A stretch of 64,000 nt of DNA from the human T2T-CHM13v2.0 reference genome, Homo sapiens: NCBI RefSeq assembly GCF_009914755.1, contig NC_060943.1. The stretch is one strand, 5' to 3'. The notes beneath the pieces are model-generated. The model did no database searches. It had not been told where the DNA came from and saw only the letters and a list, made by a program, of their open reading frames with translations. The stretch's first letter is position 1, and every line of letters starts with the position of its first letter. Positions 16,554 through 64,000 of the stretch are shown piece after piece. Made by a program: the position numbers and the translations under genes.

Positions 16554-18947
16554 GTGCTCTTTAGTTCTACATGGCCCCGCTTCCTCCAGAGCTACGTGGG
16601 CCTTCCCTATTAGTTGATGTTCATCAGTTCTATTGCACAAAGCTGAAGATGTCCAACAACGGTACTCAAATCCCACACATCCTTGGGGACCTTGAGGGTT
16701 CTAGGCTCTCTAAGGTAAGGTGCCTGTTAGGGAGGACAGAATCCAGAAACAGTGAGTTCGTTTTTTTTTCTTTTCTTTTTCTGTTTTTTTTGAGAGGGAG
16801 TTTCACTCTTATTGCCTGGCTGGAGTGCAATGGCAAGATCTCGGCTCACTGCAACCTCCGCCTTCCGGGTTCAAGCAATTCTCCTGCCTCAGCCTCCCGA
16901 GTAGCTGGAATTACAGGCATGTGTCACCACTCCAGGCTAATTTTGTATTTTTAGTAGAGATGGGGTTTCACCATGTTGGCCAGGCTGGTCTCCAACTCCT
17001 GACCTCAGGTGATACAACTGCCTCGGCCTCCCAAAGTGCTGGGATTACAGGCGTGAACCACTGCGCCCAGCCAACAGTGAGTTTTTAATACAGAACCCAG
17101 AACTTCTCTCCCATTCTGTACTCTTCTCTAACCATATAAACAAAAATTAATAAGCCAAACGTTTGTGGTGGGGCATGGTAGCTCACGCCTGTAATCCCAG
17201 CACTTTGGGAGGCCGAGGCGGGTGGATCACGAGGCCAGGAGTTCAAGACCAGCCTGGCCAAGATGGTGAAACCCCGTCTCTACTGAAAATACAGAAATTA
17301 GCTGGGCGTGGTGGCAGGCTCCTGTAATCCCAGCTACTCCAGAGGCTGAGGCAGGAGAATTGCTTGAACTCGGAGGGCGGAGGTTGAAGTGAGCTGAGAT
17401 TGTGCCACTGCAATCCAGCCTGGGTGACAGAGTGAGACTCTGTTACACAAAAAAAAAAACAAAAAACAAAACAACAAACAAACGTTTGCATCTGAAAGAA
17501 ATCTGCATACTTTTGTATCATTTTCGTTGATATTTCTCTCAGGTTCATCAATCTTGCCAGAAGATCTGCAGAATCTGCAGATATTCTTACTAGAGAAGCC
17601 GCAGTGAGTGTGAACATTTCAGCCGGGGATGGGAGGAAGGAAAAGCAGTCCTGGGGACATTTTTTGCTCCAGGGGACCAGTGATGCTCCATTAAGTGGCA
17701 CTTGCAGATCAAGTTCTGTTTCTGCTTTGAACAGAATGTTCAGGCACCCGAGAGATAGAACAAAGTGCTGAACTCCGTTCTTCACGTCATTAACCTTAAT
17801 GACCTTCAGACAGTTCCCATCCATACACAGAGTCCTACAGATTTTTGAGATCCAAAAGGTTATTTTACTATTGTCTTACCAAATTTCTAGGGGACTTGTC
17901 TTTAGAATTAGGTAGCGGCTATGTGAATCTTCCAGGGGTAAAGGTCCTCTGCTTCCTGACAGGGATTCTCCCACAATCCCTTCCTGCATGCCACAAACAC
18001 AGCATGTCCCTTTCCCCTCAATCCCTGCACCTTCCAGGCAACATTTAATGCACCTTTTTTTTTTTTTGAGACAGAGTCTCACCCAGGCTGGAGTGCAGTG
18101 GTGCGATCTCGGCTCACTGCAACCTCCGCCTCCTGGGTACAAGTGATTCTTCTGCCTCAGCCTCTTGAGTAGCTGGGACTATAGGCACATGCCACCACGC
18201 CTGGCTAATTTTTCTATTTTTAGTAGAGACGGGGTTTCACCACATTGGCCAGGCTGGTCTACAACTCCTAACCCCATGATCTGCCCACCTTGCCCTCCCA
18301 AAGTGCTGGGATTACAGGCATGAGACACCGCGCCTGGCCTTTTTTTTTTTTTTTTTTCTTTTTTTTTTTTTTTTAGGACAGAGTCTCACCCAGGTTGGAG
18401 TGCAGTGACACGATCTCTGTTCACTGCAACCTCCGCCTCCCGGGTTCAAGCGATTCCCCTGCCTCAGCCTCCTGAACAGCTGGGATTACAGGCACCCGTC
18501 CCCATGCCCGGGTAATTTTTGTATATTTAGTAGAGATGGGGTTTCACCATGTTGGCCAGGCTGGTCTCGAACTCCTTACCTCAAGTGATCCATCCGCCTC
18601 AGCCTCCCAAAGTGCTGGGATTACAGGCGTGAGCCAGTGCGCCCGGCTTCTTGAATTAGTTTCTAGGAGAAGCCAAGAACCCCCCCGGGCTAAGCCTCAA
18701 TTTTGGGGCTCGCCTGTGCTGCATCAGCTTCACACCTAGAGAAGAGAGTGAAAGAGAAGGGAGAGCCGTCCTTTTGGGCTGCCTTGAAATAAAGGTTGAC
18801 CCATGGGTTCATGTATTGTCATTCATTCTCATTTTCTCTTCCTCTCTTTCTCTCTCTCCCCTGCCCCTTAAGTTAGCTTTTCTAAACCCTACCTGGATAA
18901 GGATAAGAAATAGAAGGAGGGGACACTTTAGGATGCTACAAAATAAA

Positions 18948-18997
18948 ATACAACAACAACAACAATAACAGCAGCAGCAACAACAAAACAGCAACAA
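18948..18997. repeat. Compound (CAA)n/(CAG)n microsatellite, one per unit
   Basis: caacaacaacaacaataacagcagcagcaacaac... This is the source of the poly-Q and poly-C pseudo-ORFs. Confidence 0.9.
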
Positions 18998-60238: not shown

Positions 60239-63200
60239 ATCGTTCCCAATATAACAACAAAACATAAAGGGAGGACGCCTTGATAGGAAGAAATGACATC
60301 TTCCTAAGTGTTTTTAAATTACTTCAATGTATCTTTCTTTTTTTTTTTTTTTTTGGGAGACCGAGGCTTGCTCTGTTGCCCAGGCTGGAGTGCAGTGGTG
60401 TGATCTTGGCTCACTGCAACCTCTGCCTCGTCGGTTCAAGGGAGTCTCCTATCTCAGCCTCCTGAGTAGCTGGGATTACAGTCGCCTGCCAAGAGATGGG
60501 GTTTCGCCATGTTGACCAGGCTGGTCTTGAACACCTGGCCTCAAATGATCCACTCGCCTTGGTCTCCCAAAGTGGTAGGATGACAGGCGTGAGCCACCGC
60601 GCCCAGCCTCTTCTATTCTTTTAGAGACAGCGTCTCACTCTGTTGCCCAGGCTGGAGTGCATTGATGTGATGTGTGATCATAGCTCATTGCAGCCCTGAC
60701 CATCCGAGCTCAAGCAATCCTTCTGCCTCAGCCTCCTGAGTAGCTGGGGCCGCAGATGTGCACCACTGCACCTGGCTAATTTTTAACATTTTTTGTGGAG
60801 CCAGAGTCTGTATAAAATAAAGTGTAAATAGTACCATAAATAAAGAATACATAGTACCATTTTATAGTAGTATAAAACGGACATTAGAAACTCTGGACTT
60901 AAAGTTTAAAAAAATACACAAAAGTAGTTCTCAAGTTCTAGAGACTTGGAGAATCCAGGAATCAACAATGTCGTGGAACTCCTACAGCCTTTCATAAAGA
61001 ATGGCCCTCGAGGAAAGTGGAATTGTCAGTGGGCATTGTGTTCGTGCCTCAGCTAAACACGGCAGGAATTTATTTATAACCCAGTGTAACATCCTCGAGG
61101 CACTGTTCAATTAGTCAAGCAATTGTAAAATTCTCCCAGTCTTAGAAAAGATACAGGTGTGTGTCCCTCTGCTGTGGCTGTGCACTGACGCTTCAGTAAA
61201 AGTTGCCGTCTAAAACCACCGGCCTGCCCTTGAATTGTTTTGTTTTGTTTTGTTTTGTTTTGTTTTGTTTTTTTGATTCGCAGCCTCACTCTATCACCCA
61301 GGCTGGAGTGCAGTGACACGATCTCTGTTCACTGCAACCTCCGCCTCCCGGGTTCAAGCGATTCCCCTGCCTCAGCCTCCTGAACAGCTGGGATTACAGG
61401 CACCCGTCCCCATGCCCGGGTAATTTTTGTATATTTAGTAGAGATGGGGTTTCACCATGTTGGCCAGGCTGGTCTCGAACTCCTTACCTCAAGTGATCCA
61501 TCCGCCTCAGCCTCCCAAAGTGCTGGGATTACAGGCGTGAGCCACTGCGCCCGGCTTCTTGAATTAGTTTCTAGGAGAAGCCAAGAACCCCCCCGGGCTA
61601 AGCCTCAATTTTGGGGCTCGCCTGTGCTGCATCAGCTTCACACCTAGAGAAGAGAGTGAAAGAGAAGGGAGAGCCGTCCTTTTGGGCTGCCTTGAAATAA
61701 AGGTTGACCCATGGGTTCATGTATTGTCATTCATTCTCATTTTCTCTTCCTCTCTTTCTCTCTCTCCCCTGCCCCTTAAGTTAGCTTTTCTACACCCTAC
61801 CTGGATAAGGATAAGAAATAGAAGGAGGGGACACTTTAGGATGCTACAAAATAAAATACAACAACAACAACAATAACAGCAGCAGCAACAACAACAACAG
61901 CAACAAAAGGGGAAGAAACAAATCTGGCCACTGCACATTCCTCCTTGGCAACAAAAAGCCGTGGATGCAAAAAGCTGCCCTTCACTGCATAGACAGAAGA
62001 GGGCGCGCTCGAGCTATGAATCTCGGAAATTACTCAAACCATCAGCCTCTGCAAGAAGCAAAGTGGACGGCCGGGCGCGGTGGCTCACTCCTGGAATCCC
62101 AGCACTTTGGGAGCCCGAGGTGGGCGGATCACGAGGTCAGGAGATCGAGACTGTTCTGGCTAAACCAGTGAAACCCCCTCTCTACTAAAAAAATAACAAA
62201 AGCGAAGTGCATCTCCCATAAACGAGGTACTGCAGGAAGAAAGCAGAAAATGAGACCCGAGTACACACATGCATGCGGGCGTGCGCACACACACACCAGA
62301 AGAAATGAACCAAGAGGAAAGGAAATATTTTCAAGTAAGCATTTGGAGATGGGAAAAACACCTTGAAACAGAAATTCATAAAGTACACACATGTTTTTTT
62401 TTTTAAGTTAAAAGAGGAACAATAATAAACAGGCAGAAAATGAATAAAAAATAAAATGTCATATCAGAAGTGAAGATAAATTAAAAGTGGTCAAAGGAGA
62501 AGAGATCTAAATGCAAACTTAAGAAGGGGCAATTTTTTTTTTTTTTTTTTGAGACGCAGCCTCACTCTGTCGCCCGGGCTGGAGTGCAGTGGCGTGATCT
62601 TGGCTCACTGAAACCTCTGCCTCCTGGATTCAAGCGATTCTCCTGCCTCAGCCTCCCAAGTGGCTGGGATTACAGGCATGAGCCACCATGCCCGGCCTAG
62701 AGTCATCATGGAAATTAAACAACCTGCTTCCAAATGACTTTTGGGTAAAGACTGAAATTAAGGCAGAAATAAAAAAATTATTTGAAACTAATGAAAACAA
62801 ACATACAACATCCCAGAATCTCTGGGACACAGCTACAACAGTGCTCAGAGGAAGTTTCTAGTGCTATATGGCTACATTAAGAAGCTAGAAAGATCTCAAA
62901 TGAACCGCCTAACATCACACCTAGAGGAATTAGAAAAACAAGAGCAAATCAACCCCAAAGCTAGCAGAAGAAAAAAAAAAAACGAAATCAGAGCTGAGCT
63001 GAATGAAATTGAGATGTAAAATACCATACAAAAGATCAATGAAACCCAAAGTTGATTTTTTAAAAAAATTATTTATTTATTATTTATTCCATAAATTATT
63101 GGGGTACAGGTGGTATGTGGTTACATAAGCTCTTTAGTGGTGATTTGTGATTTTGGTGCACCCATCACCTGAGCAGTATACACTACCCCCTATTTGTTGT

Positions 63201-64000
63201 CTTTTATCCCTCGCCCTCGCCAACTCGTCCCCCTAAGTCCCCAAAGTCCATTGTATCATTCTTATGCCTTTGTGTCCTCATAGCTTAGGTCCCACATATC
63301 AGTGAGAACATACGATGTTTGGTTTTCCATTCCTGAGTTACTTCACTTAGAATAATACTCTCCGGTCTCATCCAGGTCACTGCAAATGCTGTTAATTCAT
63401 ACAAAGTTGATATTTTTGGAAGCATAAATAACATGGAAAGACCACTAGCTAGATTAATAAAGAAAAAAAGACAAGATCCAAATAAACACAATCAGAAATG
63501 ACAGAGGTGACATTACCACTGACCCACAGACATACAAGAAACCCTGAGACTATTCCACATGCCTCTATGCACAAAAACTAGAAAACTAGAAGAAATAGAG
63601 AAATTCCTGGAAACATAAAACCTCTCAAGATTGAACCAGGAAGAAATGGAAACCCTGAACAAACCAACGATGAGTTCCAAAATTGAGTTAGTCATACAAG
63701 ACCTACCAACCAGCGCAAAAAACCTTAGACTAGACGGATTCACAGTCGAATTCTACCAGATGTGTAAAGAAAAGCCGGCACCAATCCTACTGAAATTATT
63801 CCACACAATTGAGGAGGAGCAACTGCTCTCTAACTCATTCTATGAGGTCAGAGTCATTCTGATACCGAAACCTGGCAGAGACACAACGAAAAAAGGAAAA
63901 TAGGTAAAGTAATACATATGTTAATGATCTTGATTTAGCCATTCTACGGTATATACATATTTCAAAACAATATGTACATGATAAATATGTACAATTTGTC

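What the first reader, a model, noticed from the sequence alone, without database searches (positions are those of the whole stretch)
18386..64000. Tandem array of Pol III small-RNA genes (snaR) hidden in a transposon-rich 5.36-kb macrosatellite
Each unit is mostly decayed Alu, L1 and LTR sequence, but carries one ~120-nt GC/CpG-rich cassette with an A box, a B box, self-complementary ends, an A-tract and a T7-8 terminator. Starts are at 22576, 27950, 33317, 38669, 44040, 49403, 54754 and 60119 (spacing 5351-5374). This is the main biological system in the window and is invisible to the ORF track. I recognise it as the described snaR family (Alu-left-monomer-derived, NF90/ILF3-binding, great-ape expanded), so it is notable but not new as a family.
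Basis: partly seen in the sequence, partly recalled or inferred. Interest (0 to 1): 0.9.

Follow-up and report, generated by a model that had tools for sequence, protein, structure and literature searches.

The report
Known human snaR small-RNA gene array
This is the already described human chromosome 19 tandem array of snaR small-RNA genes, but this complete genome carries about four times as many copies as the published description, and most of them have no gene annotation.

Summary
Rfam family snaR-A (RF02556) matches eight full-length cassettes, all on the + strand. They start at 22577, 27951, 33318, 38670, 44041, 49404, 54755 and 60120, spaced 5351-5374 bases apart. They sit in a 5.36-kb tandem repeat that begins at about 18326 and runs off the window.

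This is the published snaR A/C cluster on 19q13 (Parrott & Mathews 2007; Parrott et al. 2011). So the family and the locus are already known.

- **Missing annotation.** Three of the eight intact copies (27951, 44041, 54755) have no RefSeq row.
- **Recent duplication.** Units 1-3 and 4-6 are a 16.09-kb duplication that differs at 8 mismatches.
- **Array size.** In this assembly the whole array is 217.7 kb with 40 intact genes, 13 A-type and 27 C-type, in homogenised blocks. Five A and five C were described.
- **Direction of change.** Seven paralogs outside the array share the C state at 9 of 13 A/C differences. That makes snaR-A, not snaR-C, the derived form, contrary to the 2011 suggestion.

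Pol III transcription and NF90 binding rest on the literature. They were not tested here.

The parts
18326..64000 (+). Proximal 45.7 kb of the snaR A/C tandem array (unit about 5.36 kb). The array continues to window-equivalent 236013 (C19:50952013).
   Evidence: BLAST of unit 33318-38669 against the window and against the 264-kb region.
22577..22698 (+). snaR-A gene (RefSeq SNAR-A12), sequence type T1.
   Evidence: Rfam 141.9 bits; hub table.
27951..28069 (+). snaR-C-type gene with no RefSeq row, type T2.
   Evidence: Rfam 107 bits. Identical to the copy at 44041 and 2 bases from SNAR-C4.
33318..33439 (+). snaR-A gene (SNAR-A1), type T1.
   Evidence: Rfam 141.9 bits.
38670..38790 (+). snaR-A gene (SNAR-A3), type T3, with one G-to-T change at gene position 60.
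   Evidence: Rfam 135.8 bits; alignment.
44041..44159 (+). snaR-C-type gene with no RefSeq row, type T2.
   Evidence: Rfam 107 bits.
49404..49525 (+). snaR-A gene (SNAR-A2), type T1.
   Evidence: Rfam 141.9 bits.
54755..54876 (+). snaR-A gene with no RefSeq row, identical to SNAR-A3 (type T3).
   Evidence: Rfam 135.8 bits; alignment.
60120..60238 (+). snaR-C gene (SNAR-C4), type T4.
   Evidence: Rfam 106.8 bits.
22577..38669 (+). First copy of the 16.09-kb three-unit higher-order repeat (genes A, C, A).
   Evidence: Unit pairs U1-U4, U2-U5 and U3-U6 differ by 0.9, 0.2 and 0.4 per 1000.
38670..54754 (+). Second copy of the three-unit higher-order repeat.
   Evidence: 8 mismatches and 8 gap columns against the first copy over 16,093 columns.
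22649..22659 (+). B-box-like internal promoter motif (gene position 73-83), shown here for the first gene.
   Evidence: Pattern search with one mismatch. The same string is present in 37 of 40 genes, 2 have a change at an N position, and 1 is shifted by an insertion.
34456..34739 (-). Alu in unit 3 (unit position 1139-1422). The array's proximal edge (unit position 1097) lies just before the same element.
   Evidence: Sub-threshold SRP-like Rfam matches; array edge.
37296..37578 (+). Alu in unit 3 (unit position 3979-4261). The array's distal edge (unit position 3958) lies just before the same element.

Best explanation
The window holds the proximal end of the human snaR A/C gene cluster.

**The gene.** Each 5.36-kb unit carries one gene of about 120 bases that descends from an Alu left monomer. 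From the literature on the family, RNA polymerase III transcribes the gene from an internal promoter (a B box, plus an Alu-like A-box region) and stops at the T7-9 run. The RNA folds into a GC-rich hairpin that the double-stranded-RNA-binding motifs of NF90/ILF3 bind.

**How the array grows.** It changes by unequal crossing-over between units. The near-identical three-unit duplication in the window shows this, as do the homogenised A-only and C-only blocks further along.

**Two gene forms.** A and C sit in units that differ by about 2% in their flanks but about 12.7% in the gene. The C form keeps the state shared by dispersed paralogs and by Alu, with a predicted three-hairpin fold. The A form is derived, and several of its changes complete a single long hairpin.

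**Shown here:** sequence, family membership, array anatomy, copy number and the direction of change.

**Inferred or from papers:** transcription, NF90 binding, and which copies are active.
For: **Family membership.** Rfam RF02556 matches 8 of 8 cassettes in the window above cut-off. All 10 sequence types found among the 40 cassettes of the array also score above cut-off, at 102.2-141.9 bits.

**Array anatomy.** Units are 97-100% identical. The 40 cassettes are all on the + strand, 5350-5394 bases apart, across 217.7 kb. Within blocks, units differ by 0.2-2 per 1000.

**Gene features.** T-runs are 7-9 bases and the B-box-like motif is conserved.

**Divergence.** Between A and C units it is 126.9 per 1000 in the gene, 20.5 far upstream and 22.6 in the core flanks.

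**Direction of change.** At positions 19, 49, 57, 64, 85, 102, 104, 111 and 112, 6-7 of 7 outside paralogs carry the C state. At positions 50 and 42, 7 and 5 of 7 carry the A state. The Alu left monomer aligns better to C (score 46) than to A (35).

**Folds.** A-type gives -57.9 kcal/mol as a long hairpin. C-type gives -64.4 as three hairpins, z = -5.5. Two outside paralogs also fold as separate local hairpins, with the 5' end paired locally and not to the 3' end.

**Literature (passages or named sections read).**
- Pol III transcription from an intragenic promoter, half-life of about 15 min, NF90 dsRBM binding, testis expression, the 5.3-kb repeat, and 5 A with 5 C (PMC2094060).
- Unit composition, snaR-C detected in testis, about 14% A/C difference, and different predicted folds (PMC3045588).
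Against: - **No expression or binding data.** Nothing here speaks to individual copies. Identical copies cannot be told apart by RNA sequence.
- **Weak A-type fold statistics.** The A-type minimum-energy fold is only modestly better than shuffles (z = -2.2; 3 of 200 shuffles fold as well), and types T3 and T8 are weaker still (z = -1.5 and -0.9).
- **Covariation cannot pick a fold.** Across 18 paralogs, the long hairpin has 88.5% of cells paired and the three-hairpin fold 90.8%, with 3 and 2 double changes.
- **Lineage asymmetry is not significant.** In the gene it is 9 A-lineage changes against 2 C-lineage changes. This gives p = 0.065 under equal rates and p = 0.35 against the flank ratio.
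- **Poor A-box fit.** The A-box-like string fits the recalled tRNA consensus poorly, and the C-type carries a further change in it.
- **L1 and LTR unconfirmed.** No L1 or LTR content was confirmed with the tools at hand.
Confidence: 0.96

Rival explanations
1. The cassettes are inert Alu-monomer fossils (pseudogenes) carried along in a segmental duplication, and they make no RNA.
For: No expression data could be examined here. The B-box-like motif also occurs in ordinary Alus: 30 of the 41 window matches lie outside the cassettes. One copy outside the window (type T6) has an insertion and a further change.
Against: All 40 copies keep full length, the T-run and a score above the Rfam cut-off. 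The literature reports Pol III transcription of a cloned snaR-A gene in vitro, northern signals for snaR-A, and qPCR and northern detection of snaR-C in testis (PMC2094060; PMC3045588).
Confidence: 0.02
2. The extra copies beyond the 10 described, and the near-identical 16-kb duplication, are artefacts of assembling a long tandem repeat rather than real sequence.
For: Units within blocks differ by only 0.2-2 per 1000, a range in which assemblers can err. Read support could not be examined.
Against: The copies are not exact. There are 10 cassette types, and spacing varies by block: 5353-5354 in the A block and 5375-5394 in the distal C block. Each pair of duplicated units carries private differences. 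The array has defined, different edges next to Alus.
Confidence: 0.05
3. [quoted passage not shown] Its ancestral-looking bases came from gene conversion of the 1-kb core by a dispersed paralog.
For: Parrott et al. 2011 found snaR-A in gorilla, found B and C only in human, and proposed this direction (Discussion read). Near-fixed A/C differences are confined to -718..+250, about the size of the shared 'Core'. Three units carry a C gene behind an A-type upstream region, so exchange does occur.
Against: A and C units also differ by 20.5 per 1000 across 3.5 kb far upstream of the core, with 78 of 3514 consensus substitutions, only 14 of them CpG transitions. That is above the recalled 1.2% human-chimpanzee average, so the units look older than the human-chimpanzee split. 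In the core flanks the chromosome 2 paralog shares the A state at 6 sites and the C state at 11 of 20, which does not fit a clean conversion tract from such a donor.
Confidence: 0.2

Closest known systems
snaR family (HGNC SNAR-A/-C; Rfam RF02556), the 19q13.32 A/C cluster of Parrott & Mathews 2007
   Same: Same genes and same locus. The 5.3-kb unit, interspersed A and C genes, internal B box, oligo(A)/oligo(T) 3' end and Alu-left-monomer ancestry all agree.
   Different: This assembly holds 40 genes (13 A, 27 C) where 5 + 5 were described and named. The genes lie in homogenised blocks and in two- and three-unit higher-order repeats. The direction of A/C change inferred here is the reverse of the one suggested in 2011.
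Rodent 4.5SH RNA genes
   Same: These are Pol III small-RNA genes derived from a 7SL-family SINE (B1) and arranged in large tandem arrays. Parrott et al. 2011 draw the parallel themselves (Discussion read).
   Different: They have a different ancestor SINE and host lineage and no sequence relation beyond 7SL ancestry. Nothing about them was tested here.
BC200 (BCYRN1)
   Same: A Pol III non-coding RNA descended from the free left Alu monomer. Its predicted cruciform fold is the one to which snaR-C is compared (PMC3045588).
   Different: It is a single-copy locus, neuron-specific and conserved across simians, and is not in a tandem array. Nothing about it was tested here.

Membership tests
snaR (RF02556 / HGNC SNAR) | Sequence-plus-structure match to the curated covariance model above its gathering score | tested here: met
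   8 of 8 window cassettes score 106.8-141.9 bits against a cut-off of 98. All 10 types of the 40-copy array score at least 102.2 bits.
snaR (RF02556 / HGNC SNAR) | Identity to named SNAR transcripts | tested here: met
   Five cassettes coincide with BestRefSeq rows (hub table). The cassette at 54755 is identical to SNAR-A3. Those at 27951 and 44041 differ from SNAR-C4 by 2 bases.
snaR (RF02556 / HGNC SNAR) | Length of about 117-122 nt with a 3' oligo(A) followed by an oligo(T) Pol III terminator | tested here: met
   T-runs of 7-9 follow all 40 genes; alignment.
snaR (RF02556 / HGNC SNAR) | Internal type-2 promoter elements (B box, A-box region) | tested here: inconclusive
   The B-box-like 11-mer is present with one mismatch in all copies. 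The A-box-like string fits the recalled consensus poorly. Function was not tested. The intragenic promoter is shown in vitro in PMC2094060.
snaR (RF02556 / HGNC SNAR) | Location in the 5.3-kb tandem repeat on 19q13 with A and C genes interspersed | tested here: met
   hub coordinates; PMC2094060.
snaR (RF02556 / HGNC SNAR) | Transcription by Pol III and binding to NF90/ILF3 | not testable with these tools
   Literature only (PMC2094060, passages read).
snaR (RF02556 / HGNC SNAR) | Descent from the Alu left monomer | tested here: met
   Local alignment to the left monomer scores 35 (A) and 46 (C), against shuffle maxima of 24 and 22. The right monomer scores within the shuffles.

The most novel reading that the evidence does not exclude
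Three linked claims:
- In a complete human genome the snaR A/C array is four times larger than the version on which the literature and gene names rest (40 intact genes against 10), and C genes outnumber A genes two to one.
- The array is built from very recent block amplifications (down to 0.02-0.09% divergence), so snaR gene dosage is probably strongly copy-number-polymorphic among people.
- snaR-A, the abundant cancer- and testis-expressed form, is the derived form. About nine substitutions turned an ancestral three-hairpin RNA into one long double-stranded rod, the kind of structure that NF90's dsRNA-binding motifs recognise.
Probability: 0.4. Interest if true: 0.4.

Novelty: already known. 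Interest (0 to 1): 0.22.

Why it matters
snaR-A is a hominid-specific Pol III RNA that is silent in most tissues, abundant in testis and switched on in cancers. A review (PMC10498592, passages read) calls its primary function undefined. A 2025 paper links it to splicing factors (PMC12647172; start of the abstract in the listing, one passage).

Studies that count 14 snaR-A and 5 snaR-C genes, or that map reads to the older reference, underestimate the template number.
- In the window, 3 of 8 intact copies have no gene row.
- Up to 100 kb past the window, 19 of 27 have none, according to the hub's table.
- Accessibility, ChIP and small-RNA signal at those copies may therefore be lost or misassigned.

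The block structure also predicts variation in copy number between people, which could affect how much snaR RNA a cell can make.

As a discovery, however, the family and the locus are already in print and in RefSeq.

Tried and rejected
- **Tandem Repeats Finder** found nothing at the 5.36-kb period because its longest period is 500. The period was shown by BLAST and MAFFT instead.
- **Pfam scans** of 13 and then 73 stop-to-stop frames of one unit found no L1, LTR or other domain. The only hit, Vitelline_membr at E = 0.029, is below cut-off and was dismissed.
- **Covariation counts** on 18 paralogs could not choose between the long hairpin and the three-hairpin fold.
- **CpG decay as the cause of the high gene divergence** was considered and rejected as the sole cause. 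By my reading of the alignment, only about 2 of the 13 A/C substitutions are CpG transitions and 5 are transversions.
- **Transcription-associated mutation** could raise the rate in both lineages. The 9 against 2 split hints otherwise but is not significant.
- **Literature searches** for snaR with T2T-CHM13 returned only pangenome papers, whose 'snar' word-start matches I take to be 'snarl' (inferred from titles and abstracts only). Whole-word searches for snaR with CHM13, and with telomere-to-telomere, returned 0 papers. A search for snar-a with 'copy number' and 'tandem' returned 4 papers; none looks from its title or abstract to be about array size, and I searched inside only two of them. 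Subscription papers and supplements were not searched, so the copy number may still be reported somewhere.
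Full report
**1. Observation**

Rfam's snaR-A model (RF02556, cut-off 98 bits) matches eight places in the window. All are on the + strand and all cover model positions 1-115:
- 22577, 33318 and 49404 at 141.9 bits
- 38670 and 54755 at 135.8 bits
- 27951 and 44041 at 107 bits
- 60120 at 106.8 bits

The spacings of 5351-5374 are exact.

A BLAST of unit 33318-38669 against the window aligns every unit at 97.0-100% identity. It places the start of repeat homology at 18326, which is unit position 1097, rather than 18386. 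The repeat runs off the window at 64000. Tandem Repeats Finder cannot report periods above 500 and gave no row for this repeat.

Each gene ends in an A-tract and a T-run: T8 in A-type and T7 in C-type. An 11-base string with one mismatch to the B-box consensus (recalled, not from a call) lies at gene position 73-83 in all eight. The same search also hits ordinary Alus. Only 8 of the 41 window matches are this site, and three more are a second site in the C-type genes. The motif is therefore supportive but not diagnostic.

**2. Identity**

Five cassettes coincide with RefSeq SNAR-A12, -A1, -A3, -A2 and -C4 (hub table). The other three have no row:
- 54755 is identical to SNAR-A3.
- 27951 and 44041 are identical to each other and two bases from SNAR-C4.

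Parrott & Mathews 2007 (PMC2094060, passages read) describe this locus. Their account includes:
- snaR RNAs of about 117 nt
- a 19q13.32 cluster of five snaR-A genes interspersed with five snaR-C genes
- a 5.3-kb tandem repeat holding SINEs, LINEs and an L1 of about 1.5 kb
- Pol III transcription from an intragenic promoter in vitro
- a half-life of about 15 min
- binding to the dsRBMs of NF90
- expression in testis

Parrott et al. 2011 (PMC3045588, sections 14, 15, 19 and 24 read) describe the unit as a Core (the snaR gene plus about 0.5 kb), a DHX34 fragment and a local sequence called R19, flanked by Alus.

**3. Unit content**

A permissive Rfam scan of one unit gives sub-threshold SRP-like matches. 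These correspond to four full Alus, one monomer and one weak fragment, about 1.4 kb or 26% of the unit. Pfam scans of 13 and 73 stop-to-stop frames found no transposon protein domain. The Alu content is confirmed. The L1 rests on the 2007 paper. An LTR was not confirmed.

snaR aligns locally to the left monomer of an ordinary Alu of the window, with scores of 35 for A and 46 for C against shuffle maxima of 24 and 22. It does not align to the right monomer, whose scores fall within the shuffles.

**4. Higher-order structure in the window**

Units 1-3 and units 4-6 are a near-identical 16.09-kb duplication. The unit pairs differ by 0.9, 0.2 and 0.4 per 1000, while other pairs differ by 6-26 per 1000. 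The two 16-kb copies differ at 8 mismatches and 8 gap columns.

Units are mosaics. The 4.2 kb upstream of a gene comes in two flavours that follow the gene type. This holds for 37 of 40 genes across the whole array. The exceptions are three C genes that sit behind an A-type upstream region.

**5. The whole array**

The assembly is held, and the window is C19:50716001-50780000. I fetched the next 200 kb and found 40 cassettes, all on the + strand, 5350-5394 bases apart, from C19:50738577 to 50948036.

Repeat homology spans C19:50734326-50952013, which is 217.7 kb. It starts at unit position 1097 and ends at unit position 3958, each just before an Alu.

There are 10 sequence types over 126 bases:

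| Form | Types (copies) | Total |
|---|---|---|
| A-like | T1 (8), T3 (2), T8 (2), T10 (1) | 13 |
| C-like | T2 (3), T4 (2), T5 (8), T6 (1), T7 (1), T9 (12) | 27 |

All ten types score above the Rfam cut-off, the lowest at 102.2 bits.

The array is organised in blocks:
- a three-unit repeat (units 1-7)
- a C block (units 8-14)
- a two-unit C/A repeat (units 15-18)
- a C block (units 19-22)
- an A block (units 23-28)
- a C block of type T9 (units 29-40)

Within blocks, units differ by 0.2-2 per 1000. This is four times the 5 + 5 genes described and named. Going by the hub's table, 19 of the 27 cassettes up to 100 kb past the window have no RefSeq row.

I could not check read support, so an assembly error cannot be excluded. 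The copies do carry private differences and block-specific unit lengths, which argues against one.

No paper in the searchable library holds the whole words snaR with CHM13, or snaR with telomere-to-telomere. Subscription papers and supplements were not searched.

**6. A versus C**

Divergence between A and C units depends on the region:

| Region | A-C differences per 1000 |
|---|---|
| Gene | 126.9 |
| Core flanks | 22.6 |
| Far upstream | 20.5 |
| Downstream | 13.0 |

All 32 near-fixed A/C columns lie between -718 and +250 of the gene start, and 15 of them lie in the gene (binomial p = 2e-6). Parrott et al. 2011 already reported about 14% against about 3%. They also reported different predicted folds and suggested that B and C arose recently from redundant A copies.

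I polarised the 13 A/C substitutions using seven paralogs outside the array: C2:77.96, C3:193.69, and C19:49.66, 52.03, 53.2266, 53.2276 and 53.69 Mb.
- The C state is shared by 6-7 of the 7 paralogs at positions 19, 49, 57, 64, 85, 102, 104, 111 and 112.
- The A state is shared at position 50 (7 of 7) and position 42 (5 of 7).
- Positions 32 and 33 are ambiguous.

The Alu left monomer also agrees with C at the positions it covers. So snaR-A is the derived form at most sites.

Four of the A-derived changes (19, 85, 102 and 104) create or strengthen pairs 19-88, 22-85, 4-102 and 2-104 of the Rfam long hairpin. That hairpin has 37 of 38 pairs in A and 33 of 38 in C.

ViennaRNA folds A as one long hairpin (-57.9 kcal/mol, z = -2.2). 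It folds C as three hairpins (-64.4 kcal/mol, z = -5.5). Two outside paralogs also fold as separate local hairpins rather than one long hairpin.

The limits of this result:
- A-lineage changes are enriched in the gene over the flanks (9 of 112 against 11 of 593, Fisher p = 0.0017). The contrast of 9 against 2 between the lineages is not significant (p = 0.065, or 0.35 against the flank ratio).
- Covariation across 18 paralogs cannot choose between the folds.
- Gene conversion of the core by a dispersed paralog could mimic an ancestral C. Against that, A and C units differ by about 2% across 3.5 kb outside the core (78 of 3514 substitutions, 14 of them CpG transitions). The chromosome 2 paralog also shares the A state at 6 and the C state at 11 of 20 core-flank sites.

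**7. Mechanism**

*Shown here:* intact, model-matching genes with terminators and a conserved B-box-like motif, in an array whose structure is what unequal crossing-over produces.

*From the literature:* Pol III transcription from an internal promoter, NF90 binding through dsRBMs, rapid turnover, testis and tumour-cell expression, ribosome association (abstract), and later reports summarised in a review (PMC10498592, passages read).

*Inferred:* the A-lineage substitutions were favoured because they make a longer double-stranded rod. Which copies are transcribed is unknown.

**8. Verdict**

The family and locus are already known, so interest is low.

Noticed in passing
window 15365-15512 (-): An Rfam Metazoa_SRP match just above its cut-off (72 against 70 bits) is only the right arm of an ordinary full-length Alu at about 15360-15652. 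It is not an SRP RNA gene.
   Followed up: yes
G000 C19:53092606-53227762 (-), outside the window: The second snaR cluster also looks larger than described. It has at least 23 A-type matches (137.6-143 bits), six B-like copies spaced about 5.39 kb apart at 53199599-53226558, and one further paralog at 53227648. Nine A, two B and one D were published. The counts are lower bounds.
   Followed up: partly
window 28009-28019, 44099-44109, 60178-60188 (+): C-type genes carry a second B-box-like 11-mer at gene position 59-69, 14 bases upstream of the shared one. In A-type genes the change at position 64 removes it.
   Followed up: no
window-equivalent 124584, 129957, 135330 (L014-L016): Three units have a C-type gene behind an A-type far-upstream region. 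These are recombinant units that place an exchange point within about 720 bases upstream of the gene.
   Followed up: partly
window 18326, and window-equivalent 236013 (L026): The array starts at unit position 1097 and ends at unit position 3958. Each edge lies just before an Alu of the unit, and the two Alus are in opposite orientation. The stretch 1097-3958 is therefore present 41 times and the rest of the unit 40 times.
   Followed up: partly
window 23961-24561: RefSeq lists an enhancer only in unit 1, yet the whole unit is repeated at 97-100% identity. The same sequence should therefore recur in every unit without a feature row. I did not check that segment separately.
   Followed up: no
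window 6888-7021, 8586-9244, 12438-12710: Three short tandem duplications lie upstream of the array, with periods of 72, 329 and 140 and about two copies each. From their consensus the last two look Alu-derived.
   Followed up: no
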